A stretch of DNA of 64,000 nt. It comes from a virus. The translations under genes and the position numbers were made by a program. Location: the IMG/VR virus record IMGVR_UViG_3300035146_000036; one strand, given 5' to 3'. Below are positions 75 through 61,353 of this stretch, in pieces (the stretch's first letter is position 1; each line of letters begins with the position of its first letter). Below the pieces are notes generated by a model. That model saw only the letters and a list, made by a program, of their open reading frames with translations, had not been told where the DNA came from and ran no database searches.

Positions 75-90
75 GCGAACTCGAGTTCGC
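75..90. promoter_or_regulatory. palindrome GCGAACTCGAGTTCGC copy 1
   Basis: Exact 16-mer; extended cTGCGAACTCGAGTTCGCAg. Confidence 0.7.
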
Positions 91-121
91 AGAAAAAACT
101 TTAGAAAAAAACTTAAAAAAG

Positions 122-150
122 TTGACAAACCATTTTTAAGGTTTTAAAAT
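122..150 (+). promoter_or_regulatory. sigma-70-type promoter TTGACAAA-N17-TAAAAT
   Basis: gTTGACAaaccatttttaaggttttTAAAAT; the 20-mer is identical to the promoter at 34639. Confidence 0.55.
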
Positions 151-195
151 CAAAGTAGATACTCAACAAGATGTTGAGAAAAATGGAGAGAAAAA

Positions 196-585
196 ATGAG
201 AAGTAAAAATTTTCAAAGATTGATTGATAAATATGGGGAAGATCGTATTAATGTTGGGGTTGATGGAGAGGAATTTTTGTATTTTTTTTCTGAAGGTCAA
301 GAGTATATTGCCTATGAGAACGGTGATATAGCAGAATTATATGAAGACAAGAAGACAGACAATTTTATAGAAGCGTGGAGATGGGGTAATGATAAAGGAG
401 AAGGATATAGTATTGGGGAAGAGTATCAGAGTCCGATGGAGGCAGCACAATCGGACGGATTGACTTGTATTATACAGATTAGTACAGATGGGTCTGTATT
501 GGGTTATAAAGAAGATGGAAGTGCTATTGTTGTATGTTGGTCTCATGGACCATGGGCGGTTGATGTAACTGATTATATGGAGTAA
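196..585 (+). CDS. hypothetical protein
   Basis: ORF track; + strand; RBS-like gagagaaaaaATG; downstream of TTGACA promoter at 122. Confidence 0.55.
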   Translation: MRSKNFQRLIDKYGEDRINVGVDGEEFLYFFSEGQEYIAYENGDIAELYEDKKTDNFIEAWRWGNDKGEGYSIGEEYQSPMEAAQSDGLTCIIQISTDGSVLGYKEDGSAIVVCWSHGPWAVDVTDYME

Positions 586-782
586 GATATGAGTAATTGT
601 ATAGATATAGAATTTACAGGACTGGAATTGAAAAAGGCAATTTCATATTTAAAGTTATCGATAGAGGTAAATAAAGATGCTGTTAAAAAAGCAGAGGAAT
701 GTTTGAATAGGTTGGTTAACTTGTGTGATTGTTTAGAAATACAAAAAGAATTTTACAGATAAAATAAGTAATATATCAAAAG

Positions 783-1151
783 TTGACAATATGGAGGGTT
801 GAGATGGGATATGCATCATATAATAGAGGGTCTAGTACTATTTCTCGTCAAATTGACATGGAACAACATGACCCATTATTTGATGTTATTGATTCTTTAA
901 ATAGCACAAAAAAAATAAGAACAAAATTTGATATTATTGGTATGGAACGTAAATTTTTTCAACCTTTTAAAAATGGTAAAATTAGTTTTGGAAACAATGG
1001 GTGGTGGTTCGAGGATGCTTCTAAAGTGGGCGGTTTTGGATATCATTATAAAACAATACGAGAAGTTTTGGCTAGTTGGGATATTATGGTAACTGGTATT
1101 GATGTAACTGGTAAAACGCCGATTTATTATACAGAGAATATAAATGAGTAA
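783..1151 (+). CDS. hypothetical protein (start probably ATG 804)
   Basis: ORF track; GGAGGG RBS precedes ATG 804. Confidence 0.5.
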   Translation: MTIWRVEMGYASYNRGSSTISRQIDMEQHDPLFDVIDSLNSTKKIRTKFDIIGMERKFFQPFKNGKISFGNNGWWFEDASKVGGFGYHYKTIREVLASWDIMVTGIDVTGKTPIYYTENINE

Positions 1152-1383
1152 AGTATCAAAAGTAGATATTATGTTGTTGGATGATGGGCTTGTTTTTGTA
1201 TGTGAAGCTAAAGGAAAGTTTGAGACTTGTGATTACACTGATGGATATAAAAACAGATGTCCATACAAGAGTAATCTAGGGTGTATTTGTGTAAATGATA
1301 GAGCAATAGAGGTTGCTCTGAAAAGGATGAAGCAAGCCATTTGTGATGAGATGAAAAGAAGGGGAATAACAGGAATGAAGTAA
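1144..1383 (+). CDS. small Cys-rich protein
   Basis: ORF track; overlapping-start gene packing. Confidence 0.5.
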   Translation: MSKVSKVDIMLLDDGLVFVCEAKGKFETCDYTDGYKNRCPYKSNLGCICVNDRAIEVALKRMKQAICDEMKRRGITGMK

Positions 1384-1629
1384 ATGTCAAAAGAAGTATT
1401 TTATCCAGTAGTAATTTATCGGGTTGATGAAGAAAACGAACCATATTTTATAGCATACCTTCCAGATTTTGGTGAAGCGGCATGTAGTGCCGTTGGAGAA
1501 ACAGAAGAAGAAGCATTATTGGAATTGAAGAATGTAAGACATGATGTAATTGAGTATTATAAAAAAAACGAGAGAGAATTGCCTAAGCCGTTTTCTAAGA
1601 AAGATATTCATTTTGGTTGGAGACATTGA
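1384..1629 (+). CDS. HicB-like / UPF0150 family protein (RNase H-like fold antitoxin-type)
   Basis: Motif YPVVIYRVDEENEPYFIAYLPDFGEAACSAVGETEEEALLEL resembles the HicB N-terminal domain. Confidence 0.6.
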   Translation: MSKEVFYPVVIYRVDEENEPYFIAYLPDFGEAACSAVGETEEEALLELKNVRHDVIEYYKKNERELPKPFSKKDIHFGWRH

Positions 1630-1641
1630 AAGGTAGATATA

Positions 1642-2636: not shown

Positions 2637-2653
2637 TGTTTTTTTAAAAAAAA

Positions 2654-2722: not shown

Positions 2723-4060
2723 ATGTTAGATACAGTCAAAGATTTTGCAAATAAGTATTTTAAATGTTTTCCTGTATATCTTGTAGGAGGGGGTGTCATA
2801 GATTATCTTTGTGATCGTATTCCAAAAGATTTTGACATAGAAATTTATGGTTTATCAATAGACGAAATTTCAGACATATTAAAATCCAATGGTTTTGACG
2901 TTAATTTTGTTGGGGCAAGTTTTGGAATAATCAAGACAGTATACAAGAATATTGATTTGGATATTTCTGTTCCCAGGGTAGATAATAGAATTGGGAAAGG
3001 TCATAAAGGATTTGATTGTTCTTTTCCTTCCAATATTTCGCCGAAAGAAGCGTCAAGAAGAAGAGATTTGACGATTAATTCAATTTTTTTAGATCTTCAT
3101 ACTTTGGATATTCATGATCCATGGGGAGGAGTTGAGGATTTAAGCAAGGGTGTGCTGAAAGCAACTGATTCAACAACATTTATTGAGGACCCGTTGAGGG
3201 TGCTTAGGGTTATGCAACTGTTAGCAAGGAAGGGAAAAAGTGTTGATTCAGATACTGTTGACTTATGTATTAGTATGGTCGATAGTTTTGTTGATTTGCC
3301 CCAAGAAAGAGTTTTTGAAGAGTTTGTGAAGCTTTTTAGTGCTAGTCGTCCATCAAAAGGGTTAAGGTTTTTGGTAGATTCAAATTGGATTTTTTGTTTT
3401 CCAGAGTTGGAAAGCCTTATTGGATGTAAACAACATCCAGAATGGCATCCAGAAGGAGATGTCTGGGAACATACTCTAAGAGTTGTTGATTGGGCAGCTA
3501 AAGAGAAAGAAAATTTGGATGAGGATTGGCGTTTGGCGTTCATGTTTGGGGCATTGCTACATGACATTGGGAAGCCAGTGGTTGTGTCTGATGATTTTAC
3601 TTGTCATGGCCATGATTTGGCTGGAGAGCCATTGACTAGGTCATTCATGGAAAGGATTACAAGGGATAAGGAACTGATTGATAGAGTTGTTTGTATTGTT
3701 AGAAATCATATGAGATGTGGACAACTTAGTTTTGGCGATGCTAAGAAATCAGGATGGAAGAGATTACATAATGACCTTAGGTTGGATGTTGTAGCATTTC
3801 TTTCTAAGTGTGATTCATTGTCTAGATATAGTGAAGAATATGTATCAGGAATGGAATATGAGCCAAGTATGGTTGCTTTGCAGTATTTTGATGAATTTGG
3901 GAAAAAGCCAATTAAGCCTGTATTGATGGGGAGACATTTGATTGATGCAGGAATGAAGCCTGGCCCAGAGTTTGGTAAGATCTTGGATAGGGCATATGAT
4001 ATCCAAATTGAAGACGGAATTTCTTGTCTAGACACATTGTTGAGGTTGGTTAATGGGTGA
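2723..4060 (+). CDS. cca: CCA-adding tRNA nucleotidyltransferase with HD domain
   Basis: Pol-beta NTase head GGGVIDYL..DFDIEI; RRDLTINS motif; HD motif LLHDIGK; 445 aa. Confidence 0.8.
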   Translation: MLDTVKDFANKYFKCFPVYLVGGGVIDYLCDRIPKDFDIEIYGLSIDEISDILKSNGFDVNFVGASFGIIKTVYKNIDLDISVPRVDNRIGKGHKGFDCSFPSNISPKEASRRRDLTINSIFLDLHTLDIHDPWGGVEDLSKGVLKATDSTTFIEDPLRVLRVMQLLARKGKSVDSDTVDLCISMVDSFVDLPQERVFEEFVKLFSASRPSKGLRFLVDSNWIFCFPELESLIGCKQHPEWHPEGDVWEHTLRVVDWAAKEKENLDEDWRLAFMFGALLHDIGKPVVVSDDFTCHGHDLAGEPLTRSFMERITRDKELIDRVVCIVRNHMRCGQLSFGDAKKSGWKRLHNDLRLDVVAFLSKCDSLSRYSEEYVSGMEYEPSMVALQYFDEFGKKPIKPVLMGRHLIDAGMKPGPEFGKILDRAYDIQIEDGISCLDTLLRLVNG

Positions 4061-4114
4061 AACAACTGGCTTGGAACTGTTTTAATACAAGCCGATGAGG
4101 CGAAAAACGAAAAG

Positions 4115-4399
4115 GTGAAGAAAGATATGCAATACACGATAGAAAGTGATAGGTTGTGGAAATTCGTTGAGGAGTTGCTTGTGTTTCCATTTCCTCAGAT
4201 ATGTAGACACACTGTGGTTTGCATGCTTGCAGATGCTTTTATGGAAAAAATTCACGCAGAGGACCCTCGCTTCAAAAGTTTTTGCCGTCATGTTGTCCGT
4301 GCTGATGACGATGAGGCACTTGAGATGCTTTATGAATTGAGAGAGAAGGACAACAGGTCAACAAAAGAAAAGAAAAAAGATGAGACCGGCAATTTATAG
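4115..4399 (+). CDS. hypothetical protein
   Basis: ORF track. Confidence 0.45.
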   Translation: MKKDMQYTIESDRLWKFVEELLVFPFPQICRHTVVCMLADAFMEKIHAEDPRFKSFCRHVVRADDDEALEMLYELREKDNRSTKEKKKDETGNL

Positions 4400-4589
4400 A
4401 TGCATTGGACCTAATTGTAAAGGTGGTAGTGAAACAGTAGTTTGTCTTGTGAGAGGTGCAAAGTCAAGACGATATTTATATCATGTTGAATGTTATGAAT
4501 GTGGTGCAAGAGGACCAGGAGGATTAACAAAGGTTGAAGCTATTTCAAATTGGAACAAATTTGTTGAAATAGGAAGTAGAGAATTATGA
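4380..4589 (+). CDS. Lar-family restriction-alleviation-like zinc-ribbon protein
   Basis: C..C...CYECGARGP...EAISNWNKF matches the Lar family signature; paralogs at 14206 and 14381. Confidence 0.55.
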   Translation: MRPAIYRCIGPNCKGGSETVVCLVRGAKSRRYLYHVECYECGARGPGGLTKVEAISNWNKFVEIGSREL

Positions 4590-6731: not shown

Positions 6732-7029
6732 TTGATTTTTTTTAAGGGTTATATGAAGATGGAATTATTATTAGAGAGTGTTTTTACTTTTGTTATCGGG
6801 GCGATTATTGGGGCGATAGTAGGATTTTTTGTGAAGATAATAAAGAAACGAAATTGATTTCGTAAGAAATAAATTGAAAGATGCTTTGGCTAATTTGAGG
6901 TGATAAAATGGATTTGTCAGAGTCTATATTGAAATTGAAATTTATTATTGATATTGTAATAGTAGTTGGAATTGTAACTATAATAGGAATTATAATAGGA
7001 ATTATTATTATATGGCGATATGAACTCAA

Positions 7030-7045
7030 ACGAACTCGAGTTCGC
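7030..7045. promoter_or_regulatory. palindrome copy 2 (aCGAACTCGAGTTCGC)
   Basis: 15/16 match, 22 nt upstream of ATG 7068. Confidence 0.7.
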
Positions 7046-7067
7046 AAAGCAAGAAATGAGTTGAAAG

Positions 7068-7358
7068 ATGTATAAAGAAAATTGTTGTAGTTTAAACATA
7101 GATGACATGAAGGGTTCTTTTTTGTGTAAGGCTATAGAAGATCTTGGATCTGGTCAGATGAGATGTACTGGGTTTAAGCGTGATGATAAAGAAGGATGTA
7201 GTAATGGATGTAAGTATAATATTATGTTTTCATGTCATAATATTGAGTTGCAATTGAAAACATTAGATGAATTGATAGAAAAATTGGGTATTTTAAAGGG
7301 ACAATTGGTCATAGAATTTGGTAAAAAGATGTATGAGCAAGTAAATGGTAATTCATAA
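7068..7358 (+). CDS. Cys-rich hypothetical protein
   Basis: ORF track; follows palindrome copy 2. Confidence 0.5.
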   Translation: MYKENCCSLNIDDMKGSFLCKAIEDLGSGQMRCTGFKRDDKEGCSNGCKYNIMFSCHNIELQLKTLDELIEKLGILKGQLVIEFGKKMYEQVNGNS

Positions 7359-8715: not shown

Positions 8716-8929
8716 AATACGAAAAAGTGATTTAAAAAAAGGTATGTGGGTTGCTTATATTGCTAATCAAGTAAATTATGGTGGGGAAATAGAAGTTGGA
8801 AGAGTGAAAAGTTGGAATGATAAGTTTGTTTTTGTAGTATATAAATGTGCTGAAAATTGGGATCGGTATGAAGATTATACTGGAGTTGCTACAAAAATAG
8901 AGGATTTAGTTATATATGATGGGGATTGA
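8702..8929 (+). CDS. hypothetical protein
   Basis: ORF track. Confidence 0.5.
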   Translation: MMLDKIRKSDLKKGMWVAYIANQVNYGGEIEVGRVKSWNDKFVFVVYKCAENWDRYEDYTGVATKIEDLVIYDGD

Positions 8930-9245
8930 TATGATAATTGCAGCACCCAATTTACCGGATAAATATCATTTAGAATATGTAAAAAAAGAAATGAAGAAAC
9001 TTGGTGTACCTAAAATTAGAGCTATATGGTCAAAAACACATAATATATGGTTTGCAGCAGAAGGGTCACATCGTATTGCAGCAGCACATAAGGCTGGAAT
9101 AGTTCCTATTATAATTGATATTACTGGAGAAGATGCAATTGTTCAGAAGAATGAAGAGGATACCCAAATGACTGCTAGAGAGTTAGAAGATTGGTTGATT
9201 TCTGACCCTACTGCACCCAGATATGTTTTTGATGAAAATAATTGA
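8916..9245 (+). CDS. ParB/Srx-like nuclease-domain protein
   Basis: AAEGSHRIAAAHKAGIVPII resembles the ParB-N DGxHRxxAA motif. Confidence 0.45.
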   Translation: MMGIDMIIAAPNLPDKYHLEYVKKEMKKLGVPKIRAIWSKTHNIWFAAEGSHRIAAAHKAGIVPIIIDITGEDAIVQKNEEDTQMTARELEDWLISDPTAPRYVFDENN

Positions 9246-10249: not shown

Positions 10250-10498
10250 ATGAATAAGATAGATTGGCCTAGTGGTAAGAAGATGCATGTTCAGAATATT
10301 GTTCTTGCACCACCTAATGGACGTCACGTTCATTCTGAATTGGTGGAAGAGGCTTACAAAGAATATTGTCAGATGTTCGGAAATAGTCAAACGTTAGAAA
10401 GATTACAAGAGAGGGGTGGATTTGATATAGTTGAATTGGCTACTTTTTTGTATATGAGGATAAAGCGGTTAGAGAAGAATATTGTAGAAAAAAGTTGA
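10250..10498 (+). CDS. hypothetical protein
   Basis: ORF track. Confidence 0.5.
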   Translation: MNKIDWPSGKKMHVQNIVLAPPNGRHVHSELVEEAYKEYCQMFGNSQTLERLQERGGFDIVELATFLYMRIKRLEKNIVEKS

Positions 10499-10522
10499 CA
10501 AATTTTGTGTTGTATATAATAT
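10495..10522 (+). promoter_or_regulatory. sigma-70-type promoter TTGACA-N16-TATAAT
   Basis: aaaagTTGACAaattttgtgttgtataTATAAT. Confidence 0.6.
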
Positions 10523-10571: not shown

Positions 10572-11804
10572 ATGAAAAGTTTAACTAAAAAGCAAATCGA
10601 AAAATTATCAATTTATAGAGATAAGTGGATACGAATAGGTACATCTATATTTGATATTGATGATCGTAAAATAGCTGAAAAGTATATTGATGATGTATAT
10701 TCGATTGCTGGATTTGAACCACCAAAATTTAAGATATGGTTATCTTCTCCTTATAGTGGTGTAATTGGAGTTGTGTTATTAAAACAGATTAGGGCTCAGG
10801 TTGGGGATCAGATTTGGGATCAGATTTGGGATCAGATTAGAAATCAGATTGTGGAACAGGTTGGGGAACAGGTCGGGGAACAGGTCTGGGAACAGGTCGG
10901 GCAACAGGTTGTGGAACATGTTGGGAATAAGGTTGGGGATCAGATTAAGGATCAGATTTGGTTTAAGAGTTTAGGTAAGGTTGTGAATCAGATTAGAAAT
11001 CATGTTGGGGATCAGATTTGGGAACAGATTAGAAATCAGATTAGAAATCAGATTAGAAATCAGGTTGGGGAACAGGTTGTGGAACAGGTTGGGGAACATG
11101 TTGTGGAACAGGTTGGGAATCAGATTGATGGTCAAAATTTGACATTTAACATTTGGCATCAGGTTGATGTTCAAACCTTTCAATGTGGATATGGAATTCA
11201 TGATGCTAACTTTTTATCATTTTATGATTATTTTGATAGTGAGGTATTATATAATTTGAATGAAATTAGGCCATTAATAAATTTGTCTAAATATGTTGGT
11301 TGGTGGTGGCCTTTTGAAAATGTAGTAATTTTTACGGATAAACCAATATTTGTTTGTTGTGATGACCGAGGTAGGCTTCATCATGAGAATAGGATGGCAT
11401 TAGAATATTCTGACGGATTCGGGATATACTCATGGCATGGCATTATGGTTTCAGAACAAATTATTATGAAACCAGAAACTATAACGTTAGACCAAGTAGT
11501 GAAAGAGAATAATCAGGAGATTCGTCGTATTATGTTGGATCGGTATGGATGGGATAGGGTTTTGTGTGATTTGCATGCTTGTGTAGAACATGAGGATAAT
11601 ACAGGAAAATTGATATCTACTTATAGGCTTGGAGAATATTTAGCTGGTGAAGATGAGATAGCAAAATTTGTATTAGTAGTTGACCCTTCTACTAATCGGA
11701 AATATTCATTAAGAGTACCACCCGAAACAAAAACAGCTAAAGAGGGAGTGGCATGGACATTTGGGCAAAAAGAAGATGAGTATAATCCAATAAAGGAGAC
11801 ATAG
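10572..11804 (+). CDS. tetrapeptide-repeat protein ((I/V)x(D/E)Q units) with globular C-terminal domain
   Basis: About 45 tandem 12-nt units at 10796-11140 encoding VGDQ/IWDQ/IRNQ/VGEQ...; promoter TTGACA 10495. Confidence 0.6.
   Translation: MKSLTKKQIEKLSIYRDKWIRIGTSIFDIDDRKIAEKYIDDVYSIAGFEPPKFKIWLSSPYSGVIGVVLLKQIRAQVGDQIWDQIWDQIRNQIVEQVGEQVGEQVWEQVGQQVVEHVGNKVGDQIKDQIWFKSLGKVVNQIRNHVGDQIWEQIRNQIRNQIRNQVGEQVVEQVGEHVVEQVGNQIDGQNLTFNIWHQVDVQTFQCGYGIHDANFLSFYDYFDSEVLYNLNEIRPLINLSKYVGWWWPFENVVIFTDKPIFVCCDDRGRLHHENRMALEYSDGFGIYSWHGIMVSEQIIMKPETITLDQVVKENNQEIRRIMLDRYGWDRVLCDLHACVEHEDNTGKLISTYRLGEYLAGEDEIAKFVLVVDPSTNRKYSLRVPPETKTAKEGVAWTFGQKEDEYNPIKET
10796..11140 (+). repeat. tandem 12-nt repeat array (~28 units) inside CDS 10572..11804
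   Basis: gatcagatttgg / gaacaggttggg variants encoding (I/V)x(D/E)Q. Confidence 0.8.
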
Positions 11805-12096: not shown

Positions 12097-12423
12097 ATGA
12101 TTTCTGATAATAGAAATATATATATTTTAAACATTCTTATTGCTTTTGTATGGTTGTTTAATTTTTTTGATGCTGTTTTTACGTGGTATTGGTTGAATAA
12201 TGGTGCAGAAGAGTTGAACTGGATTATGAAGACATTGTTTGATGTTCATCCAATTTTGTTTTTCGTTTGTAAAATCGGTTTTGTGACTATTTTTTTGATA
12301 ATGTTGAAAAGGTGGTTGAAAGAACATTTTCTTGCCAGAGTAGGAATTGTATTGTGTTTTGTTATTTATTCTTTTGTGATTTTATGGCATTGTTGTGGTG
12401 CATATTATATTTTAGGTGATTAG
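12097..12423 (+). CDS. integral membrane protein (3-4 TM)
   Basis: Hydrophobic segments ILNILIAFVWLF, ILFFVCKIGFVTIFLIML, IVLCFVIYSFVILW. Confidence 0.5.
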   Translation: MISDNRNIYILNILIAFVWLFNFFDAVFTWYWLNNGAEELNWIMKTLFDVHPILFFVCKIGFVTIFLIMLKRWLKEHFLARVGIVLCFVIYSFVILWHCCGAYYILGD

Positions 12424-12427: not shown

Positions 12428-12443
12428 GCGAACTCGAGTTCGC
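12428..12443. promoter_or_regulatory. palindrome copy 3
   Basis: Exact; 13 nt before ATG 12457. Confidence 0.7.
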
Positions 12444-18052: not shown

Positions 18053-18290
18053 GCATAAAGATATTTTTACAAAAGAACAAATTGAAGAATTAGTTGGTAG
18101 AGTTGTTACAATTAATTATAAGGGTCTTTTAGATAGGAAAGTTTTGGTAACTAGGCTTTTTAAGGGAAGTATAGGTTTTGATTCTAAAGAAGAATGGATA
18201 TTAGGTGTTGTTGAAATTGGGAAAGGATTTTTTGAGATACCGATTGCTATTTCTAATATATTAGAGATAAAGAAATTGGTAGTTGATTAG
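18015..18290 (+). CDS. hypothetical protein
   Basis: ORF track. Confidence 0.45.
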   Translation: MMVNIRKSYMKIKHKDIFTKEQIEELVGRVVTINYKGLLDRKVLVTRLFKGSIGFDSKEEWILGVVEIGKGFFEIPIAISNILEIKKLVVD

Positions 18291-18293: not shown

Positions 18294-18309
18294 GCGAACT
18301 CGAGTTCGC
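18294..18309. promoter_or_regulatory. palindrome copy 4
   Basis: Exact; 12 nt before ATG 18322. Confidence 0.7.
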
Positions 18310-18321: not shown

Positions 18322-18525
18322 ATGTCGAGACGGGTTGTTGTTTGGTCTGGATGTGCTGATTCTACATATCTTCTTCATTGGTATGCTACTTATTCTTCTA
18401 TACAAAATCCTGTTTATGCTATTACGGTTGATTATCATCCTCAATTAGATAAGAAATTTATGGCTGCACAAAGAGCAGCAAAATTTGAAATGGAAAAGAA
18501 GAATCCACGGTCACCGTTTTTTTAA
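18322..18525 (+). pseudogene. PP-loop (QueC-like N-terminus) fragment, 68 aa (ATG 18322 inside track ORF 18283..18525)
   Basis: MSRRVVVWSGCADSTYLLHWY resembles the QueC/PP-loop SGGxDS start, but the ORF terminates after 68 aa; follows palindrome copy 4 + AGAGG RBS. Confidence 0.3.
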
Positions 18526-22517: not shown

Positions 22518-22727
22518 ATGAGACCAGATAGACCAGGATATTGGTGGTGGCGTGTTGATGCTTCATGTAAGTGGGAGATAGTAGAAATATTAAAAAATTC
22601 TGATGATGAATTTATAGTTAGATGGATAGGTAAATCAGGATTTAGTTTTTTGTCTGTTGTTGGAGGTGAGTGGCTTGGAATGGTATGTTTAAATCATGTA
22701 ATACCATTTGTTAATGAAGGAGAGTGA
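22518..22727 (+). CDS. hypothetical protein (paralog of 20789..20974)
   Basis: Sequence similarity noted above. Confidence 0.5.
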   Translation: MRPDRPGYWWWRVDASCKWEIVEILKNSDDEFIVRWIGKSGFSFLSVVGGEWLGMVCLNHVIPFVNEGE

Positions 22728-23025
22728 TATGTATAAAGAAAAATTAGAAGTATTACGTGCAAATGTTGCTGTTCAATCTTCTGATGGAAATTGGAATTAT
22801 GACCCATATAATCATGGTTATGCTAATGGTTTAATTTTAGCTGAAGCTATTATGTATGATATTGAACCTAAATTTCTTGACGCACCCGAAGAGTGGATAA
22901 GTGAACGTGATGGTTTAGTATGCAGTAATGAAGATTTGAAGGATTTTGAAAGAATTAGTTTGGATTCTGAATTGTCAGCTTTGAATGTTTTGAACAGGAG
23001 TATTGCGAACTCGAGTTCGTTGTAA
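22708..23025 (+). CDS. hypothetical protein
   Basis: ORF track; 3' end overlaps palindrome copy 5. Confidence 0.45.
   Translation: MLMKESDMYKEKLEVLRANVAVQSSDGNWNYDPYNHGYANGLILAEAIMYDIEPKFLDAPEEWISERDGLVCSNEDLKDFERISLDSELSALNVLNRSIANSSSL
23005..23020. promoter_or_regulatory. palindrome copy 5 (GCGAACTCGAGTTCGt)
   Basis: 15/16; 20 nt before ATG 23041. Confidence 0.7.
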
Positions 23026-38131: not shown

Positions 38132-38147
38132 GCGAACTCGAGTTCGT
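38132..38147. promoter_or_regulatory. palindrome copy 8 (GCGAACTCGAGTTCGt)
   Basis: 15/16; directly upstream of TTGACA promoter 38155. Confidence 0.7.
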
Positions 38148-41765: not shown

Positions 41766-42072
41766 GTCAGAAGTAGTATTTTTGATTGAAGAAAAATTTA
41801 AAGAATTTGGTATTAAATATTCAAAAGAAGTTTTTTTATCTAAAGGATGCAGAGTAGATCTTTTGACAGAAGATGGGATTGCTATAGAAGTAAAAAAGGG
41901 CAAGCCAAATACAAGATCTGTATCAATGCAAATTAAAAGATATGCGAGTAGTGATAAAGTAACGGCTGTAGTTCTTGTATCTGAGAGGGGATTATTTAGT
42001 CATATAACAGAAGCAAATGGCAAACCGATTGGGTATGTTTCATTATCATCGAATTGGGGAGTAGCTTTATGA
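41689..42072 (+). CDS. possible PD-(D/E)xK nuclease-fold protein (start uncertain, maybe TTG ~41763)
   Basis: GCRVDLLTEDGIAIEVKKG resembles a D...E.K restriction-endonuclease-like core; overlaps the previous ORF. Confidence 0.3.
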   Translation: MIGLLMSVENILSILKTIKTGVVSLESEVVFLIEEKFKEFGIKYSKEVFLSKGCRVDLLTEDGIAIEVKKGKPNTRSVSMQIKRYASSDKVTAVVLVSERGLFSHITEANGKPIGYVSLSSNWGVAL

Positions 42073-42191
42073 AGATGTGTGTTAATGGGTGTAATGAGCC
42101 GGTTCATGATCCATCAAAAGTTTTATGTAAAAGATGTTTAGATGAATTGGATAAAAAGATGAAGACAATATTGAAACGGATGAAGGATAGA

Positions 42192-42207
42192 GCGAACTCG
42201 AGTTCGC
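42192..42207. promoter_or_regulatory. palindrome copy 9
   Basis: Exact; 15 nt before ATG 42223. Confidence 0.7.
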
Positions 42208-42222
42208 AGAAAGGTTGAGAAG

Positions 42223-45216: not shown

Positions 45217-45258
45217 GTTTTTTTAGGGAATAGGGTGAATTTTTGTGAAAAAAATAAG

Positions 45259-45286
45259 TTGACAAATGCTTTTAGATGAATAAAAT
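45259..45286 (+). promoter_or_regulatory. sigma-70-type promoter TTGACA-N16-TAAAAT
   Basis: aaaaataagTTGACAaatgcttttagatgaaTAAAAT. Confidence 0.55.
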
Positions 45287-45627: not shown

Positions 45628-45978
45628 GGGGTCGATTTGGTTTCGACATTTGACTAGATTGATATTATGCATGTTCCGCTTTGGGTATTCAGCGGATTAA
45701 AAAGAATGCTTGAATACAATCGTCAGACATAACGATAGCCAAGTTTGGGCTGAAGCTGCCTAAACCGTCCAAGTGCTGATTGCCTGTGTAGGTATAAGGG
45801 CGTCATTTTTACAGGATAGTGACCATTTTTCATGGGAAATGGTGAGCGAAAATGACCATGAAGAATTTGTATGTAGTTGTCTATCATTGCATGCAAATTA
45901 TTTAGATAGACTAAACATGTGAAGATTAATATTGAGATGTCTAAATGGACTGGGGTTCGATTCCCCACGACTCCAACT
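45628..45978 (+). ncRNA. ssrA: tmRNA (ssrA-like), tag approx (A)NDSQVWAEAA
   Basis: 5' GGGGUCGAUUUGGUUUCGAC matches the tmRNA 5' consensus GGGGnnGAUUnnGGnUUCGAC; 3' T-arm CUGGGGUUCGAUUCCCCA + acceptor CGACUCC pairing with 5' GGGGUCG; tag ORF aac gat agc caa gtt tgg gct gaa gct gcc TAA at 45731-45763, about 100 nt from the 5' end as in E. coli (ANDENYALAA); CCA not encoded. Confidence 0.75.
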
Positions 45979-46675: not shown

Positions 46676-46750
46676 TCGGGATGTAGCGCAGTCTGGTTAG
46701 CGCACTTGATTTGGGGTCAAGGGGTCATAGGTTCGAATCCTATCATTCCG
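46676..46750 (+). tRNA. tRNA-Pro (anticodon UGG)
   Basis: Acceptor CGGGATG/CATTCCG (C1-G72 as in bacterial tRNA-Pro), D-arm GCGC-AGTCTGGTTA-GCGC, anticodon arm CTTGA-TTTGGGG-TCAAG (UGG), T-arm ATAGG-TTCGAAT-CCTAT, discriminator A, no encoded CCA. Confidence 0.8.
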
Positions 46751-47049
46751 ACGAGGAGCAGCCTCAAAACTGCAATATAGGTGAAAGTCCTTAAGGATGT
46801 TAACGATGTGAGAACATTTAAGTGTTGTTTTCCTCTGGCGAATTGGCTAAGTCATGAAACCACAAGGCATCCTTGCCACTGTTGCTGTGCAGTATCACAG
46901 TGTCTATGTCCTATAATCAGTTTGTTTTAGAAGACGTTCTAGACAAAGATGAATAAGGAGTAGACCGGGTTTGCTGATTGTCCGAGAAACGAATTAGACC
47001 TATATGGAGTGAGCCATACAGCTTGGTGCGATGCCAGGCATTTAAATAT

Positions 47050-49482: not shown

Positions 49483-49498
49483 GCGAACTCGAGTTCGT
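49483..49498. promoter_or_regulatory. palindrome copy 10 (GCGAACTCGAGTTCGt)
   Basis: 15/16; 22 nt before ATG 49521 (terminase small subunit). Confidence 0.7.
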
Positions 49499-53909: not shown

Positions 53910-54764
53910 ATGGCATATATTCAAGGTTCAGCAATAGAAAAGGTGAGAATAGGAAGTATTGAGCATAAGCTTGGTGATATACACGATTTTATTCAGGAGG
54001 AATATAAAGATGCTTTGCGTATTATTGCTACATTTGATGACCATGTGTTAGCCTTTAATGGAGAAGGCAAATTAAGGAATATTTCTTTTTTGATAGATGA
54101 AGATGGGAAGATGAGAATTAATGAAGACAAAGCATCTAGGTCTATTCCTATTATAAAAGAAGAAGAAATCCCATCTCATGTATCAAAAGAACTAAAAAGT
54201 ATAGCTAAATCTATGATGAATGGTGATGATGTATTGCGAACTCGAGTTCGCGAGTTGGTGCCTTTTATTAATGATAAAGATATGATTTGGTTTTCTGATA
54301 TTATGAATGGTATCAAAGAATCTACAAAGCCTAATGAGTGGAGTAAAATGTATGAGGCTAATGTAGAGCGTATAAAGACAAGACTTTATGGTCGCATTAG
54401 AGACATAGAAGGTGGAGTTCCTAAAACAAGATATTCTAGATTGCCGGAAGAAAGAATTTATGAATTTGCAAAAGAAGTGAATGAATCTATGTCAATTCTT
54501 CTTGACCGATATAAAATTATAATAGAAGGTTGCAAAGATTTATCATTTTGTGATAATAAGTTTTTAGGTGCCGTTTGTGAATCGTTGATAGTTGAAGCGC
54601 AGGCTGCTGTTAGTCTGCTTGGTAAGGCCGAAAAGTTGTCAAGGCATGAGGATTTGCCTTTAGTAGCAAAGGCACATGACAAATTGGCCGACCGAGCAAG
54701 GACAATGGTTTTGTTATCAGAATATCTGAAATTAAAAGCAAAACCTAACAACAAGGAGCGTTAA
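53910..54764 (+). CDS. hypothetical head-morphogenesis protein
   Basis: ORF track; within the structural module; contains palindrome copy 11 in-frame (TRVREL). Confidence 0.5.
   Translation: MAYIQGSAIEKVRIGSIEHKLGDIHDFIQEEYKDALRIIATFDDHVLAFNGEGKLRNISFLIDEDGKMRINEDKASRSIPIIKEEEIPSHVSKELKSIAKSMMNGDDVLRTRVRELVPFINDKDMIWFSDIMNGIKESTKPNEWSKMYEANVERIKTRLYGRIRDIEGGVPKTRYSRLPEERIYEFAKEVNESMSILLDRYKIIIEGCKDLSFCDNKFLGAVCESLIVEAQAAVSLLGKAEKLSRHEDLPLVAKAHDKLADRARTMVLLSEYLKLKAKPNNKER
54236..54251. promoter_or_regulatory. palindrome copy 11 (intragenic)
   Basis: Exact; lies inside CDS 53910..54764. Confidence 0.6.
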
Positions 54765-59205: not shown

Positions 59206-59277
59206 CGGGATGTGTTGCTCCATTCAATGGGGTGTGGATTGAAACAGTGGTAGTATAGTATTGTGACCAATTGTTAA

Positions 59278-59311
59278 GGGTCGGGTCGATATCGGCTCGA
59301 CCCTTTTTTTA
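59278..59311 (+). terminator. rho-independent terminator
   Basis: GGGTCGGGTCGATATCGGCTCGACCC hairpin + TTTTTTT. Confidence 0.7.
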
Positions 59312-59322
59312 GGAGATTAAAA

Positions 59323-59868
59323 ATGCCAAAATATAAGATGAAAAATGGTCAGAAGCGACAACAGTTTTGTGGTGGTATAACTAGAATTATAAATAATGGT
59401 TCTAAAGCTAGTGGTATAAGAGATTTTGTTTTTGAACCAGGTGAGATTGTTGATACTGGCGATTTTAATCTTAATTGTTGGGTTAGAGATGGATATCTTA
59501 TTGAAGTAAAAGATGAAGTAGAAGATGAAATAAAAGATGAAATAAAAGATGAATGTTTGGATGAGGATTTAGATAAAAAGTTGGATATAATTGAGAATAT
59601 TTCTTTAGAATCAGATTCGATTGATAATTTTAGTATTGTTGATTCTAATATAGAAGAAAATGATAAAATAGATGGTGATGATGAAGATAATTGTGACAAA
59701 GAAGATAATAAAGAGTTTAATAATTCAGATGATATTAATAATGAAGTAGGTGATTATGTATCAGTAAAAGGTGGTTTTAGATGTCTTTCTTGTGGAAAGT
59801 TTCTTAAAAGTGAGAAGAGAATGATTACTCATGTAGATAGAAAACATAAAGGGTTGAAATTGTATTAA
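59323..59868 (+). CDS. acidic repeat protein with C-terminal C2H2 zinc finger
   Basis: DEVEDEIKDEIKDE tandem repeats; CLSCGKFLKSEKRMITHVDRKH. Confidence 0.5.
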   Translation: MPKYKMKNGQKRQQFCGGITRIINNGSKASGIRDFVFEPGEIVDTGDFNLNCWVRDGYLIEVKDEVEDEIKDEIKDECLDEDLDKKLDIIENISLESDSIDNFSIVDSNIEENDKIDGDDEDNCDKEDNKEFNNSDDINNEVGDYVSVKGGFRCLSCGKFLKSEKRMITHVDRKHKGLKLY

Positions 59869-60576
59869 ATGGAGGATTCCATGAAAAAAACATTATTTGA
59901 GAGTAGGCTTGATAATACAATTGATGCAGGTTTAATAGGGATTGGTGAGACAGTAGAGGTTAGAAATAAAATGGGTGTTCATGTTGCTGTGGGAGAGGTA
60001 GTGGCTGTTACACCTATGGGTTTATCTATTAGAGAAAATGGTTTTTTTGATCGAGATTTATATTTATTTTCTGTTTTAGAGCCAGAACAATTGGAAGTTG
60101 TTGGATATAGTTTATTGAGTTCACCTGATGATCGTGTAGCTAAAAGATTAGCTGAGCTTGGTGAGGAAGTACCAATAAATGAAGCTGATAAAATGGATAA
60201 TTATGTAAATAAAGATAATGGTAATAAAGATGATGGTAATAAAGATGATGAAGATGAAGAAGAAGATGATGATGATAAAAAAGACAAAGAAAAAGGGAAG
60301 AAATCTAATGGTGATATGGAACCATTAGCAAAACCGGAATCATCGGTGGATGTTGATTCACTTCCGGAAGATATAAAAAAATCTATTATATCAATTGTTC
60401 AGATGAATGAAGACCAACTTAATGGTGTGCTATCTGAAATAGGAGATGCTACAGTAAAGGCATTAAAGAGAGTAAATATAAAGGAACCTGAAATTTATAG
60501 TGTTGTTGGTAAAATACAAGATTCTGCAGAGAAGATATTGACATCACCTATTAAGCGGTCAATTGGGAAGAAATAA
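59869..60576 (+). CDS. acidic hypothetical protein
   Basis: ORF track; D/E/K low-complexity centre. Confidence 0.5.
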   Translation: MEDSMKKTLFESRLDNTIDAGLIGIGETVEVRNKMGVHVAVGEVVAVTPMGLSIRENGFFDRDLYLFSVLEPEQLEVVGYSLLSSPDDRVAKRLAELGEEVPINEADKMDNYVNKDNGNKDDGNKDDEDEEEDDDDKKDKEKGKKSNGDMEPLAKPESSVDVDSLPEDIKKSIISIVQMNEDQLNGVLSEIGDATVKALKRVNIKEPEIYSVVGKIQDSAEKILTSPIKRSIGKK

Positions 60577-60581
60577 TCATT

Positions 60582-61322
60582 ATGAATTGTGGAGTAGAAT
60601 GGAGTGATAATAGAGCAACTGATGTTGTGAAAGAATATATTCTTGATGAACTAGGTTGTGATGTCATAGGTGTTGAGCTCACGGATAAGCATTTGGAGAG
60701 TGCTATTCGTAAGGCACAGGAATATTGGTTAATGTGGGTTGGTAGGGTACGTTCCGTTGATTTGACGCTTACTAGTGCTAGGGAATATCCTGCTTCTGTC
60801 CTTGGTCCAGATGTTGATAGTGTAGTTGATGTTTATTTCGATGCTTATGATTCTTCTTTGAAAGATATTTTTGGGTGGGCAGATGTAGAGATAAATCCAT
60901 TTCAATATGTTTATGAAGGGAGAGGGGGATATTCTGGATTAGTTCAATATATGATGTATCGGGATGATGCTAAAAAAATTGTATCAGCTGACCGAGATTG
61001 GCAATGGGATAAGTCTAGGCGTATATTGGTAATATCTCCAGAGAATAGTAATACTAGGAAGATAAAAGTTGTTTATCTTTCAAGATGTTTTGATTATAAT
61101 TATTTAAGTACATATGAGTGGCATCTATTTAAGGAATATGCTTTAATGAGAGCAATGAAAACTTTGGCTACGATTAGAATGAAATATTCTGATAAGCCAT
61201 CTGCAACAGGTACATATACAATGGATGGTGAAACGATGTATGCAAATGCTGAAGCTATGGAAATGCGACTTGAAGAGAAGATGCGGTTGATGCAACATCC
61301 AGTTGGGATAATGACCGATTGA
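60582..61322 (+). CDS. hypothetical structural protein
   Basis: ORF track. Confidence 0.5.
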   Translation: MNCGVEWSDNRATDVVKEYILDELGCDVIGVELTDKHLESAIRKAQEYWLMWVGRVRSVDLTLTSAREYPASVLGPDVDSVVDVYFDAYDSSLKDIFGWADVEINPFQYVYEGRGGYSGLVQYMMYRDDAKKIVSADRDWQWDKSRRILVISPENSNTRKIKVVYLSRCFDYNYLSTYEWHLFKEYALMRAMKTLATIRMKYSDKPSATGTYTMDGETMYANAEAMEMRLEEKMRLMQHPVGIMTD

Positions 61323-61337
61323 TAGAACTAATTTTTG

Positions 61338-61353
61338 GCGAACTCGAGTTCGC
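61338..61353. promoter_or_regulatory. palindrome copy 12
   Basis: Exact; 18 nt before ATG 61372. Confidence 0.7.

What the first reader, a model, noticed from the sequence alone, without database searches (positions are those of the whole stretch)
75..61353. Perfect 16-bp palindrome GCGAACTCGAGTTCGC repeated 12 times, mostly just upstream of ribosome-binding sites
Twelve copies occur in 64 kb: eight exact and four with a single end mismatch, and several extend to 20-bp palindromes. Most sit 12-26 nt upstream of a start codon and are followed by AAAGAGG-type RBS sequence (copies 3, 4, 7, 9, 10, 12). The motif appears in front of both early-region and structural-module genes (terminase small subunit at 49483; the gene at 61372). 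One copy lies in-frame inside a CDS (54236). Such a long, invariant, self-complementary motif is not a sigma-70 promoter, which here are TTGACAAA-type. It could be the operator of a dimeric phage HTH/RHH regulator, the promoter of the phage-encoded sigma factor, or an RNA hairpin in 5'UTRs (an RNase III-type processing or stability element, or a translational operator).
Basis: seen in the sequence. Interest (0 to 1): 0.8.

Follow-up and report, generated by a model that had tools for sequence, protein, structure and literature searches.

The report
Dispersed 16-bp palindrome at phage gene boundaries
A large uncultivated T4-like phage carries an almost invariant 16-base palindrome about every 5.6 kb, wedged between genes; all its copies changed in step in a sister lineage, so it is most likely the genome-wide docking site of a phage-encoded two-part (dimeric) protein whose identity and purpose are unknown.

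Summary
The window has 12 copies of RCGAACTCGAGTTCGY (7 exact, 5 with one end mismatch; 0 expected by chance). It is the most repeated 11-mer in the window. The window belongs to a 158-kb contig of a low-GC, strongly GC-skewed, T4-like phage with every gene on one strand.

Copies sit in minimal gaps (stop codon, motif, Shine-Dalgarno, start). They are spaced far more evenly than chance (CV 0.25-0.33, P about 1e-5), and their positions are kept in relatives down to 60% capsid identity.

Across 58 non-orthologous sites:
- the arms CGAAC/GTTCG never vary;
- the centre drifts (TCGA, TCAA, TTGA, TTAA);
- the outer R/Y bases vary independently in each half;
- a sister lineage has every copy switched symmetrically to CGAAA/TTTCG, including a copy inside a gene, where the protein sequence changed to follow the motif.

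This pattern fits a dyad-symmetric, sequence-reading, co-evolving factor. A phage-encoded dimeric DNA-binding protein acting genome-wide is the most likely candidate. The closest analogues are mycobacteriophage stoperators and the unexplained Cluster O and Cluster K repeats.

The motif equals the Gram-positive LexA box, but its placement and the lineage switch argue against host LexA. An RNA hairpin read by a protein remains the main rival. I class it as a new variant of a known kind, of moderate interest.

The parts
75..90 (.). Copy 1, GCGAACTCGAGTTCGC. It extends to a 24-bp perfect palindrome. A TTGACA-N17-TAAAAT promoter-like site follows at 122-150, and the next gene starts at 196.
7030..7045 (.). 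Copy 2, ACGAACTCGAGTTCGC. It overlaps the 3' end of small ORF 6908-7075 and lies 22 nt before ATG 7068. In the relative L167, sequence homology changes sharply exactly at this copy.
12428..12443 (.). Copy 3, exact, a 20-bp palindrome. It lies 4 nt after stop codon TAG 12421-12423 and 13 nt before ATG 12457 (aaaagagg Shine-Dalgarno).
18294..18309 (.). Copy 4, exact. It lies 3 nt after stop codon TAG 18288-18290. The sequence aaagagg, then ATG 18322, follows.
23005..23020 (.). Copy 5, GCGAACTCGAGTTCGT. It lies within the last codons of ORF 22708-23025 (peptide ...ANSSSL*) and 20 nt before ATG 23041 (aaggagg).
29763..29778 (.). Copy 6, exact. Its first base is the last base of stop codon TAG 29761-29763. 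No convincing start codon lies within 100 nt downstream.
35272..35287 (.). Copy 7, ACGAACTCGAGTTCGC. It lies 8 nt after stop codon TAA 35261-35263 and 26 nt before ATG 35314.
38132..38147 (.). Copy 8, GCGAACTCGAGTTCGT. It lies 8 nt upstream of a TTGACA(-35)...TAAGTA promoter-like site. That site precedes the operon encoding DUF3268 (38218), a putative RHH protein (38634) and an XRE HTH protein (40272).
42192..42207 (.). Copy 9, exact. It overlaps the 3' end of small ORF 42054-42218 (...ANSSSQKG*) and lies 15 nt before ATG 42223. In relatives L010 and L025, homology resumes 4 nt before this copy.
49483..49498 (.). Copy 10, GCGAACTCGAGTTCGT. It sits at the 3' end of a 336-nt gap, 22 nt before ATG 49521, the gene preceding the large terminase. 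The position is conserved in L010, L021 and L279.
54236..54251 (.). Copy 11, exact, in frame inside CDS 53910-54764 (peptide RTRVR, using the rare codons CGA, CGA and CGC). It is conserved in relatives with 45-71% identity. In the sister lineage it is switched to GCGAAATCGATTTCGC (peptide RNRFR).
61338..61353 (.). Copy 12, exact. It lies 15 nt after stop codon TGA 61320-61322 and 18 nt before ATG 61372 (aagaggg). Orthologous copies are ACGAAC..GTTCGT in L002, GCGAACTTGAGTTCGT in L003 and GCGAACTCAAGTTCGC in L326/L327.

Best explanation
The motif R-CGAAC-TYRA-GTTCG-Y is most likely the recognition site, on double-stranded DNA, of a homodimeric sequence-specific protein encoded by the phage and co-evolving with it. 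One monomer would read each 8-bp half-site RCGAACTY.

The sites are kept at about one per 5-6 kb, in the shortest available gaps between co-directional genes, in every functional module. By analogy with systems of known function, the protein most likely acts genome-wide on transcription, either as an elongation roadblock or silencer or as a global regulator at cistron boundaries. Two copies sit just upstream of sigma-70-type promoters.

Shown: the two-fold symmetry, the independent variation of the half-sites, the positional conservation, selection on the nucleotide sequence even inside a coding region, the concerted specificity switch between lineages, and the coincidence with module and cassette junctions.

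Inferred: The protein could be a LexA-like winged-helix protein, since the class-1 site is a perfect Gram-positive LexA box and phage-encoded LexA homologues are known (phage GIL01 encodes one).
For: (1) There are 12 copies in the window against 0 expected and 15 in 83 kb of the parent contig.

(2) Among 58 non-orthologous sites in the phage family, the arms are 52 CGAAC/GTTCG, 6 CGAAA/TTTCG and 0 mixed. The outer positions are always R and Y and vary independently (Fisher P = 0.57). The centre positions 8 and 9 are Y and R and also vary independently (P = 0.28). So the degeneracy is dyad-symmetric per half-site and does not follow base pairing.

(3) Both orientations of the asymmetric centres (TCAA and TTGA) occur, so the centre has no strand or loop identity.

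(4) In a sister lineage (L340, L341, L353, L365, L374; family membership shown by tblastn) every copy has the symmetric C-to-A / G-to-T arm change.

(5) The in-CDS copy is identical over 16 nt in a protein stretch where about half the codons differ. It uses Arg codons of 6.7%, 6.7% and 1.3% usage. In the sister lineage the encoded peptide changes (RTRVR to RNRFR) to follow the motif.

(6) Orthologous positions are kept down to 60-70% capsid identity and across GC contents of 34-55%.

(7) The motif sits tightly between stop codon and Shine-Dalgarno, on both sides.

(8) Known systems work this way. Cluster A mycobacteriophage repressors terminate elongation at numerous stoperators across the genome (PMC9283540). 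The authors of the Cluster O study proposed dimeric regulatory proteins for a 34-copy palindrome (PMC4351075).
Against: No cognate protein was identified. Pfam and PHROGs scans of the window found only generic XRE, RHH and sigma proteins, and no LexA/S24, ParB or KorB family member. Only about 84 kb of the 158-kb genome could be read.

No integrase or other lysogeny gene was seen, so a silencing role has no lifestyle support. The only related hits are antirepressor-like P22_AR_N and Bro-N proteins on related contigs.

The symmetric arm switch is also exactly what a base-paired stem would show (C-G to A-U). Because every gene is on one strand, every copy is transcribed, so an RNA-level reader cannot be excluded.

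The even spacing is not explained by a simple operator model, and it is not universal. Relative L331 has gaps of 179-900 bp.
Confidence: 0.45

Rival explanations
1. RNA element. The transcribed motif folds into a 6-bp stem with a 4-nt loop between cistrons. A phage-encoded RNA-binding protein or endoribonuclease (Csy4/Cas6-like or RegB-like in logic) reads it. The protein would cut or insulate the long polycistronic transcripts at cistron boundaries, leave a protective terminal hairpin, or repress translation of the downstream gene.
For: All genes are on one strand, so every copy is transcribed. Most copies lie between a stop codon and the next Shine-Dalgarno, which is the place where cutting would not damage coding sequence. 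The lineage switch C-G to A-U keeps the base pair. The hairpin is predicted in context and leaves the Shine-Dalgarno free. An NYN-domain nuclease and RNA-repair genes occur in the phage family.
Against: The stem sequence is invariant with no site-by-site compensatory changes across 58 sites, while the loop varies and occurs in both orientations. This is the reverse of how proteins usually read RNA hairpins (my own general knowledge). The outer R/Y pair shows no covariation: A..C mismatches are as common as expected by chance. The full dyad symmetry, including the centre, has no reason in RNA. The hairpin is weak (-6.7 kcal/mol) and far too short for RNase III. The conserved in-CDS copy would cut or block its own mRNA. 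There is no Rfam match.
Confidence: 0.25
2. Host LexA boxes. The class-1 site is a perfect Gram-positive SOS (Cheo) box, CGAAC-N4-GTTCG. Host LexA would bind the phage genome at about 28 places. The phage would use this either to tie its expression to the host SOS state or to titrate LexA away from host targets.
For: The site matches the published consensus 5'-CGAAC(N4)GTTCG-3' exactly in all 12 copies (PMC9700832). The arms are invariant while the 4-bp spacer drifts in relatives, as in LexA boxes. Invariance across relatives with 34-55% GC suggests a very conserved reader. Phages that exploit LexA are known: GIL01 and pBtic235 (PMC9700832, PMC4551915).
Against: A sister lineage has switched every copy to CGAAA-N4-TTTCG. 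I know of no reported LexA motif with that sequence, and LexA motifs are described as extremely stable across broad groups (PMC8565304). The sites are not at promoters: they lie between stop codon and Shine-Dalgarno, and twice upstream of a -35 element. The spacer is nearly fixed as TCGA within the window lineage, unlike a LexA regulon. The known LexA-controlled jumbo prophage has a single operator (PMC9700832). The host is unknown: scans of genome and metagenome collections found only chance single hits outside the phage family.
Confidence: 0.1
3. DNA-level structural or enzymatic site. The motif would be the target of a phage nickase, recombinase or structure-specific enzyme, or of a ParB/KorB-type clamp loader. 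Its role would be in replication, clamp loading, genome organisation, or exchange of gene cassettes between co-infecting phages. Even spacing would matter for such roles.
For: Spacing is quasi-regular (P about 1e-5). In relative L331, four copies bracket small ORFs inserted between the large terminase and portal genes. A homing-endonuclease ORF nested in an intein of the terminase gene carries its own copy at its stop codon. Homology with relatives breaks exactly at copies 2 and 9. Several independent assemblies end just after copy 1. The Cluster O paper reports insertions and deletions flanked by its palindrome (PMC4351075). From my own knowledge, plasmid RK2 has 12 KorB palindromes in 60 kb, and phage N15 has dispersed centromere palindromes.
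Against: No recombinase, nickase or ParB-family gene was found in the sequence available. Only 2 of roughly 25 homology breakpoints coincide with a copy. Even spacing is absent in L331. Sixteen bp of identity would promote occasional recombination whatever the primary function is. Selection for evolvability cannot by itself keep the sequence invariant.
Confidence: 0.12
4. Promoter. The site would be a compact promoter for the phage sigma factor or a phage RNA polymerase, possibly used as an extruded DNA hairpin as with the phage N4 virion polymerase. It would fire just upstream of each ribosome-binding site.
For: Copies lie directly upstream of gene starts in all modules, and inserted cassettes bring their own copy. 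The conserved in-CDS copy lies upstream of the highly expressed head genes. From my own knowledge, N4 early promoters are 5-7-bp-stem DNA hairpins. The DNA hairpin here is of similar size (-4.7 kcal/mol).
Against: A perfect palindrome would fire in both directions, yet no genes lie on the other strand. In several copies only 12-15 nt separate the motif from the start codon, so a transcript starting downstream of the motif would lose the Shine-Dalgarno. Sigma-70-family promoters are asymmetric. No phage RNA polymerase was found in the sequence available.
Confidence: 0.05

Closest known systems
Cluster O mycobacteriophage 17-bp palindromic repeat, 5'-TGTTCGGNNNCCGAACA (Corndog and relatives; PMC4351075)
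   Same: An invariant inverted repeat with a short, less constrained spacer. There are dozens of copies throughout the phage genome, many in short intergenic gaps and some inside genes. Positions are conserved among relatives, and some insertions and deletions are flanked by copies. The repeat is absent from the host genome. The authors suggest a dimeric regulatory protein, but the function is unknown.
   Different: The sequence and geometry differ (7-bp arms with a 3-bp spacer). Density is higher (34 copies in about 70 kb), and a third of the copies are inside genes. The host is a high-GC actinobacterium and the phage a siphovirus. Neither even spacing nor a lineage-wide specificity switch was reported.
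Stoperators of Cluster A mycobacteriophages (L5 gp71-type immunity repressors; PMC9283540, PMC6550527)
   Same: Numerous binding sites for one phage protein are distributed across the genome in short intergenic spaces of both early and late operons. The site consensus co-evolves with the protein between lineages. The function is known: silencing by blocking transcription elongation.
   Different: Stoperators are asymmetric 13-14-bp sites, bound by a monomer, and oriented with respect to transcription (PMC9283540). The motif here is dyad-symmetric. No repressor and no evidence of lysogeny was found here.
Start-associated sequences and extended SAS inverted repeats of Cluster K mycobacteriophages (PMC3203893)
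   Same: Conserved repeats lie immediately upstream of translation starts of many genes. ESAS are inverted repeats just upstream of the ribosome-binding site, and their consensus differs between subclusters. The function is unknown. The authors found little support for RNA hairpins.
   Different: SAS itself is asymmetric, contains the Shine-Dalgarno, and is restricted to the non-structural half of the genome. ESAS are imperfect 17-bp repeats with variable spacers. The motif here does not include the Shine-Dalgarno and occurs in all modules.
Gram-positive LexA (DinR) operator, the Cheo box CGAAC-N4-GTTCG (PMC9700832)
   Same: The arm sequence and the 4-bp spacer geometry are identical.
   Different: Cheo boxes overlap the promoters of SOS genes, their spacers vary within a regulon, and a genome has a few dozen imperfect sites. 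Here the sites are perfect, are not at promoters, and are replaced by CGAAA/TTTCG in a sister phage lineage.
KorB operators of plasmid RK2 and dispersed ParB/SopB centromere palindromes of phage N15 (own knowledge, not checked in papers here)
   Same: About a dozen copies of a 13-16-bp perfect palindrome are scattered over roughly 60 kb, some far from promoters or inside genes. A dimeric ParB-family protein acting globally reads them.
   Different: No ParB- or KorB-family protein was detected in the sequence available. Those sites are not placed at cistron boundaries.

Membership tests
LexA (Cheo) box of Gram-positive bacteria | Sequence CGAAC-N4-GTTCG | tested here: met
   All 12 window copies and 52 of 58 family sites match. 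The consensus is taken from PMC9700832.
LexA (Cheo) box of Gram-positive bacteria | Operator overlaps or adjoins the promoter of the regulated gene | tested here: not met
   Copies lie between a stop codon and the next Shine-Dalgarno. The two promoter-linked copies lie 8 and 31 nt upstream of the -35 element.
LexA (Cheo) box of Gram-positive bacteria | Motif stable across hosts and set by the host protein, not by the phage lineage | tested here: not met
   The sister phage lineage has every copy as CGAAA-N4-TTTCG. LexA motifs are described as extremely stable across broad groups (PMC8565304).
LexA (Cheo) box of Gram-positive bacteria | Bound by LexA and released on RecA-stimulated cleavage | not testable with these tools
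   This needs EMSA or ChIP, and the host is unknown.
Stoperator-type dispersed repressor sites (Cluster A mycobacteriophages) | Many copies in short intergenic spaces of both early and late operons | tested here: met
   Copies lie in the small-gene, nucleotide-metabolism, regulator, packaging, head and tail regions.
Stoperator-type dispersed repressor sites (Cluster A mycobacteriophages) | Asymmetric site in one orientation relative to transcription | tested here: not met
   The site is dyad-symmetric, and the asymmetric centre variants occur in both orientations.
Stoperator-type dispersed repressor sites (Cluster A mycobacteriophages) | Cognate immunity repressor encoded by a temperate phage | tested here: inconclusive
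   An XRE HTH protein (40272-40520) and a weak RHH hit are present but not linked to the motif. No integrase was seen. Only about 84 of 158 kb could be read.
Stoperator-type dispersed repressor sites (Cluster A mycobacteriophages) | Site consensus differs between lineages (co-evolution with the protein) | tested here: met
   Class 1 has CGAAC/GTTCG and class 2 has CGAAA/TTTCG, with no mixed sites.
Intrinsic (Rho-independent) terminator | GC-rich hairpin followed by a run of U | tested here: not met
   The downstream flank is A- and purine-rich, and there is no T run on either strand. The terminator scan of 1-20 kb did not report any copy.
RNase III processing site (phage T7 type) | Long (about 20 bp) imperfect double-stranded stem | tested here: not met
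   Only a 6-bp stem is predicted (up to 10 bp in copy 1), at -6.7 kcal/mol.
Any curated RNA family (Rfam 15) | Match to a covariance model at its gathering score | tested here: not met
   Only tmRNA and tRNA-Pro were found in the window.
Structured RNA hairpin under structural selection only | Independent compensatory changes at different copies; stem sequence free to vary | tested here: not met
   There is no site-by-site covariation in 58 sites. The only change is concerted across a lineage. The outer pair shows independence (P = 0.57).
ParB-parS / KorB-OB systems | ParB-family protein (ParBc plus HTH) encoded with the sites | tested here: inconclusive
   There is no ParBc hit in the window. 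The small ORF 8916-9245 looks ParB-N-like by eye only, with no PHROG hit. The rest of the genome was not readable.
Phage N4-type hairpin promoter | Phage virion RNA polymerase, and a transcription start a few nt 3' of a 5-7-bp hairpin | not testable with these tools
   No phage RNA polymerase was seen in the sequence available. Transcription starts need RNA data.

The most novel reading that the evidence does not exclude
The sites could be a genome-organising system rather than ordinary operators. A phage-encoded factor would load at evenly spaced, dyad-symmetric sites about every 5.6 kb along a genome of more than 158 kb that is transcribed in one direction. It might partition the genome into units, for instance as a ParB/KorB-like sliding clamp loader, or by site-specific nicking that loads a clamp for late transcription. 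The same sites would double as the junctions at which gene cassettes are swapped between phages, giving an integron-like 'plug-in' grammar for a large virus. Alternatively, the sites could be a natural Csy4-like cistron-insulation system at the RNA level.
Probability: 0.15. Interest if true: 0.8.

Novelty: new variant of a known kind. Interest (0 to 1): 0.55.

Why it matters
Dispersed, invariant palindromes in phage genomes have been reported before, in Cluster O and Cluster K mycobacteriophages, and have stayed unexplained for over a decade. This case adds three features that make the question tractable.

First, it has a formal signature of dyad-symmetric half-site recognition. Second, there is a natural specificity switch between two sister lineages. 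That switch should allow the cognate protein to be found by looking for a DNA- or RNA-binding protein whose recognition residues co-vary with the motif class. Third, the spacing is quasi-regular, which hints at a genome-scale function rather than gene-by-gene regulation.

It also shows that a perfect match to a famous host operator (the LexA box) can be misleading. If the factor turns out to organise transcription, or to mediate cassette exchange, along a very long one-directional genome, that would be a new principle for large phages.

Tried and rejected
- **Chance:** rejected. Shuffles give 0 matches.
- **Host-genome motif:** Almost all hits were single chance matches in high-GC genomes. Only 5 loci belonged to the phage family, and no bacterial genome with multiple copies was seen. 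The host remains unknown.
- **Mis-binned contig:** one family contig is binned as an 'uncultured archaeon' MAG. The phage encodes a tmRNA and a sigma-70-family protein and uses Shine-Dalgarno sites, so I treat that bin assignment as wrong.
- **Close cultured relative:** none. Megablast of the structural region against 50,697 phage records found nothing. The best protein match is 31.6% identity to a 595-kb uncultured phage. That phage and another 35% relative carry no such motif and no other repeated inverted repeat.
- **Intrinsic terminator, RNase III site, Rfam family:** all rejected.
- **Sigma-factor promoter:** rejected on geometry.
- **Ribosome-binding-site-specific function:** weakened, because the motif abuts the upstream stop codon as closely as the downstream Shine-Dalgarno.
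- **Conserved flanks beyond 16 bp:** none. There is only a weak T at -2 and A at +2.
- **Cognate protein:** Pfam on all window ORFs (concatenated) and PHROGs on 10 candidates found no LexA/S24, ParB, recombinase or RNase that could be tied to the motif. Large ORFs on related contigs gave DnaB, an N6/N4 methylase, an NYN nuclease and antirepressor-like proteins, none of them decisive.
- **Universality of even spacing:** rejected. Relative L331 has clustered copies.
- **Errors of mine:** one search was a wasted scan, because its pattern is the reverse complement of that. L289, first counted as a family member, is an RNA virus (RdRP) and was removed.
- **Literature search for the exact 16-mer:** it returns only shRNA cloning constructs.

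Full report
**1. Observation**

The pattern GCGAACTCGAGTTCGC occurs 7 times exactly and 12 times with at most one mismatch. The coordinates are 75, 7030, 12428, 18294, 23005, 29763, 35272, 38132, 42192, 49483, 54236 and 61338. Dinucleotide-preserving shuffles give none.

The five imperfect copies differ only at the first or last base. The 14-bp core CGAACTCGAGTTCG is invariant, so the motif is RCGAACTCGAGTTCGY. Every GAAC-N4-GTTC in the window belongs to one of these copies, and 12 of the 14 CTCGAG sites do. The motif gives the most repeated 11-mers in the window. The next repeated word is a promoter-like AAAGTTGACAAA.

Only copies 1 (24 bp) and 3 (20 bp) extend into longer perfect palindromes.

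**2. Context**

The window has 34% GC, a GC skew of +0.3 to +0.55 (C is 10% of the + strand) and all genes on the + strand. It encodes:
- a T4-type portal, prohead protease and gp23-like capsid protein;
- an SNF2 helicase, ThyX, dCMP deaminase and thymidylate kinase;
- a CCA-adding-type nucleotidyltransferase and a sigma-70-family protein;
- XRE-type and a possible RHH regulator;
- a tmRNA and a tRNA-Pro.

There is no close cultured relative. The nearest public phage record is a 595-kb uncultured phage at 31.6% capsid identity.

The window is part of a 158,275-bp JGI metagenome contig. With 10 kb recovered on each side, 83 kb hold 15 copies.

**3. Placement**

Coding density is 91%, yet 9 of 12 motif centres lie within 35 nt of a gene boundary, against 21% for random positions (P = 1e-4). 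The typical layout is stop codon, 0-15 nt, motif, 0-8 nt, Shine-Dalgarno, start codon.

- Eight copies have a start codon 12-26 nt after the motif.
- Three copies overlap the last codons of the upstream ORF, in two different frames.
- Copies 1 and 8 are followed by sigma-70-type promoter-like sites, 31 and 8 nt downstream.
- Copy 11 is in frame inside CDS 53910-54764.

Because the motif abuts the upstream stop codon as tightly as the downstream Shine-Dalgarno, its closeness to ribosome-binding sites is what any element squeezed into minimal intergenic gaps would show. It is not specific evidence for a role in translation.

**4. Spacing**

Gaps in the window are 6955, 5398, 5866, 4711, 6758, 5509, 2860, 4060, 7291, 4753 and 7102 bp. 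The CV is 0.25, against about 0.92 for random sites or randomly chosen gene starts (P = 1e-5 to 3e-5). Over 83 kb the CV is 0.33 (P = 2e-5).

Gaps measured on other family contigs at non-orthologous places are also 3.1-7.3 kb (and derived values). A more distant relative, L331, is different. It has 9 copies in 21.6 kb with gaps as short as 179 bp. Even spacing is therefore a property of this lineage and not a rule of the family.

**5. Conservation in relatives**

Scans of IMG/VR, and searches with the capsid protein, recovered about 35 related contigs. They have the same skewed composition and homologous genes.

Orthologous copies are kept in front of the same genes at 70-75% nucleotide identity. 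Examples are copies 9, 10, 11 and 12 in L002, L010, L025 and L003.

The in-CDS copy is the clearest case. It lies in a protein stretch where about half the codons differ between the window and L002. Even so, the 16 nt are identical and use CGA, CGA and CGC for arginine, whose usage in this genome is 6.7%, 6.7% and 1.3%. Selection there acts on the nucleotide sequence and not on the protein.

**6. How the motif varies**

Relatives at 63-70% capsid identity keep the arms but let the centre drift to TCAA, TTGA or TTAA. Across 58 non-orthologous sites:
- position 1 is always R and position 16 always Y, and the two vary independently (Fisher P = 0.57);
- positions 8 and 9 are Y and R and also vary independently (P = 0.28);
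- both orientations of the asymmetric centres occur.

The consensus is thus two independent copies of the half-site RCGAACTY in inverted orientation. A homodimer reading duplex DNA would produce this degeneracy pattern. A base-paired stem would not, because it would show G-C/A-U covariation and avoid A..C, and a specific loop would have one orientation.

**7. A concerted switch**

One relative, L332 (the same contig as L374), has 60% capsid identity. At the position orthologous to the in-CDS copy it carries GCGAAATCGATTTCGC, with both arms changed symmetrically.

A scan for this variant found further contigs carrying only this form: L340 (three copies), L341, L353 and L365. Most copies again lie just upstream of a Shine-Dalgarno and start codon. 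tblastn shows these contigs belong to the same phage family, with 37-62% identity to terminase, portal, protease and tail proteins.

No site with mixed arms exists: 52 are C/G, 6 are A/T and 0 are mixed. In the CDS, the encoded peptide changed from RTRVR to RNRFR to accommodate the new motif.

A change applied to all copies in a genome and to both arms means the arms are read by a trans-acting factor whose specificity changed. This excludes a structure-only hairpin. It also argues against a host factor as conserved as LexA.

**8. The LexA resemblance**

CGAAC-N4-GTTCG is the published Bacillus Cheo-box consensus (PMC9700832). The arm-and-spacer behaviour in section 6 is LexA-like, and this was my leading idea for a while. 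Four points count against host LexA:
- the sites are not at promoters;
- the spacer is almost fixed within the lineage;
- the one described LexA-controlled jumbo prophage has a single operator (PMC9700832).

A phage-encoded LexA-like winged-helix protein remains possible, since GIL01 encodes a LexA homologue (PMC6182141, title and abstract only). None was detected in the sequence available.

**9. Links to gene cassettes**

- In L331, four copies bracket three small blocks of ORFs inserted between the large terminase and portal genes. Those genes are adjacent in the window and in L327.
- In L021, L004 and L293 the large terminase gene carries a 1.46-kb intein. A NUMOD3-repeat ORF nested in another frame within it ends in an extra copy of the motif.
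- Homology between the window and relatives resumes 2 nt before copy 2 (L167) and 4 nt before copy 9 (L010, L025). That is 2 of roughly 25 internal breakpoints, where about 0.05 would be expected by my own estimate.
- Several independent assemblies end 45-65 nt after copy 1.

The motif therefore marks module junctions more often than chance, as was reported for the Cluster O palindrome (PMC4351075). Sixteen identical bases would favour such exchanges whatever the primary function is, so I treat this as a consequence and not the cause of conservation.

**10. Rejected or weakened readings**

- Intrinsic terminator: no U tract.
- RNase III site: the stem is only 6 bp, at -6.7 kcal/mol.
- Any Rfam family: no match.
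- Sigma-factor promoter: wrong geometry and symmetry.
- N4-type hairpin promoter: the DNA hairpin is of comparable size (-4.7 kcal/mol). However, no phage RNA polymerase was found, and a perfect palindrome would fire both ways.

**11. Best explanation and its limits**

The evidence supports a dyad-symmetric, sequence-specific, co-evolving reader of the two arms. I judge a phage-encoded homodimeric DNA-binding protein the most likely reader (0.45). Genome-wide control of transcription at cistron boundaries is the most plausible activity, by analogy with stoperators (PMC9283540).

The main rival is an RNA hairpin read by a phage RNA-binding protein or endonuclease (0.25). Every copy is transcribed, and the arm switch preserves pairing. 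Other rivals are host LexA (0.10), an enzymatic or architectural DNA site (0.12) and a promoter (0.05).

What binding does, why the spacing is even in this lineage, and which protein is responsible were not resolved. Only about 84 of 158 kb of the genome could be read, and the host is unknown.

**12. Comparison and novelty**

The closest published cases are:
- the 34-copy 17-bp palindrome of Cluster O mycobacteriophages, function unknown (PMC4351075);
- the start-associated and extended inverted repeats of Cluster K, function unknown (PMC3203893);
- the stoperators of Cluster A, which silence transcription (PMC9283540).

This motif differs from all of them in sequence and host range, and in belonging to a large T4-like phage. 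It also differs in its strict dyad symmetry, its quasi-regular spacing and the documented concerted specificity switch. It is a new variant of a known kind. Its interest lies mainly in making an old unexplained phenomenon testable.

Noticed in passing
window 45628-45978 and 46677-46752: The phage encodes a full-length tmRNA (Rfam 110 bits; predicted tag peptide VRHNDSQVWAEAA) and a tRNA-Pro(TGG). They lie in a roughly 1.7-kb stretch with no convincing protein genes.
   Followed up: partly
whole window: The strand asymmetry is extreme. GC skew is +0.27 to +0.56 in every 2-kb window (G 24%, C 10%), and all genes over at least 83 kb are on one strand. Related contigs range from 31% to 55% GC while keeping the skew and the motif.
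   Followed up: partly
L021 (G-rich orientation) 3053-4510 and 6806-7331; the insertion points correspond to window 50826/50828 and 53124/53130: Close relatives (97-99% identical) carry a 1.46-kb intein in the large terminase gene. A NUMOD3-repeat ORF is nested in a different frame within it. They also carry a 525-bp insertion in the portal gene. The window has neither insertion.
   Followed up: partly
window 30675-33329: An 884-aa protein has a Major Vault Protein shoulder domain (E = 3.6e-24) and a weak vault-repeat hit. This is unusual for a phage.
   Followed up: no
window 10800-11100 (inside gene 10572-11804, DUF6745): A 12-nt periodic tandem repeat (GGGATCAGATT / CAGATTAGAAATCA words recurring every 12 nt) lies within the coding sequence.
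   Followed up: no
window 117-130, 778-790, 10490-10502, 44507-44519, 45256-45266, 38156: The -35-like word AAAGTTGACAAA recurs. It probably marks the host-type early promoters of this phage. Two of these sites lie directly downstream of motif copies.
   Followed up: partly
L167 and L252 (GenBank CAYUTF010000008.1, 65,298 bp): A close relative of this phage sits in a public genome bin labelled 'uncultured archaeon'. The tmRNA, the sigma-70-family gene and the Shine-Dalgarno usage point to a bacterial host, so the binning looks wrong.
   Followed up: partly
window 18322-18525: The short ORF after copy 4 begins MSRRVVVWSGCADSTYLL..., which resembles by eye the PP-loop (SGGxDS) start of QueC-type enzymes. 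It is only about 67 aa long. It may be a truncated or split 7-deazaguanine-pathway gene.
   Followed up: no
window 37105-38085; L319 7726-8355 and 1-874: There is an RlaP-type nucleotidyltransferase in the window, an RNA ligase about 1.8 kb upstream of it, and a RecA/UvsX-like gene about 9 kb upstream of it. Together with the CCA-adding-type enzyme, these form an RNA-repair-like gene set.
   Followed up: no
L126 402 and L294 9174 (G-rich orientation): In two related contigs a motif copy lies a few bases after a sequence that looks like a tRNA T-arm (ggttcgaatcc / gttagaatcc), so it may directly follow a tRNA gene. No tRNA search was run on these contigs.
   Followed up: no
L289 (IMGVR_UViG_3300022722_000170): A contig with similar GC and skew carries one copy of the 16-mer but encodes an RNA-dependent RNA polymerase. 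It is an RNA virus and the hit is a chance match, which is a caution against assigning family membership by composition alone.
   Followed up: yes
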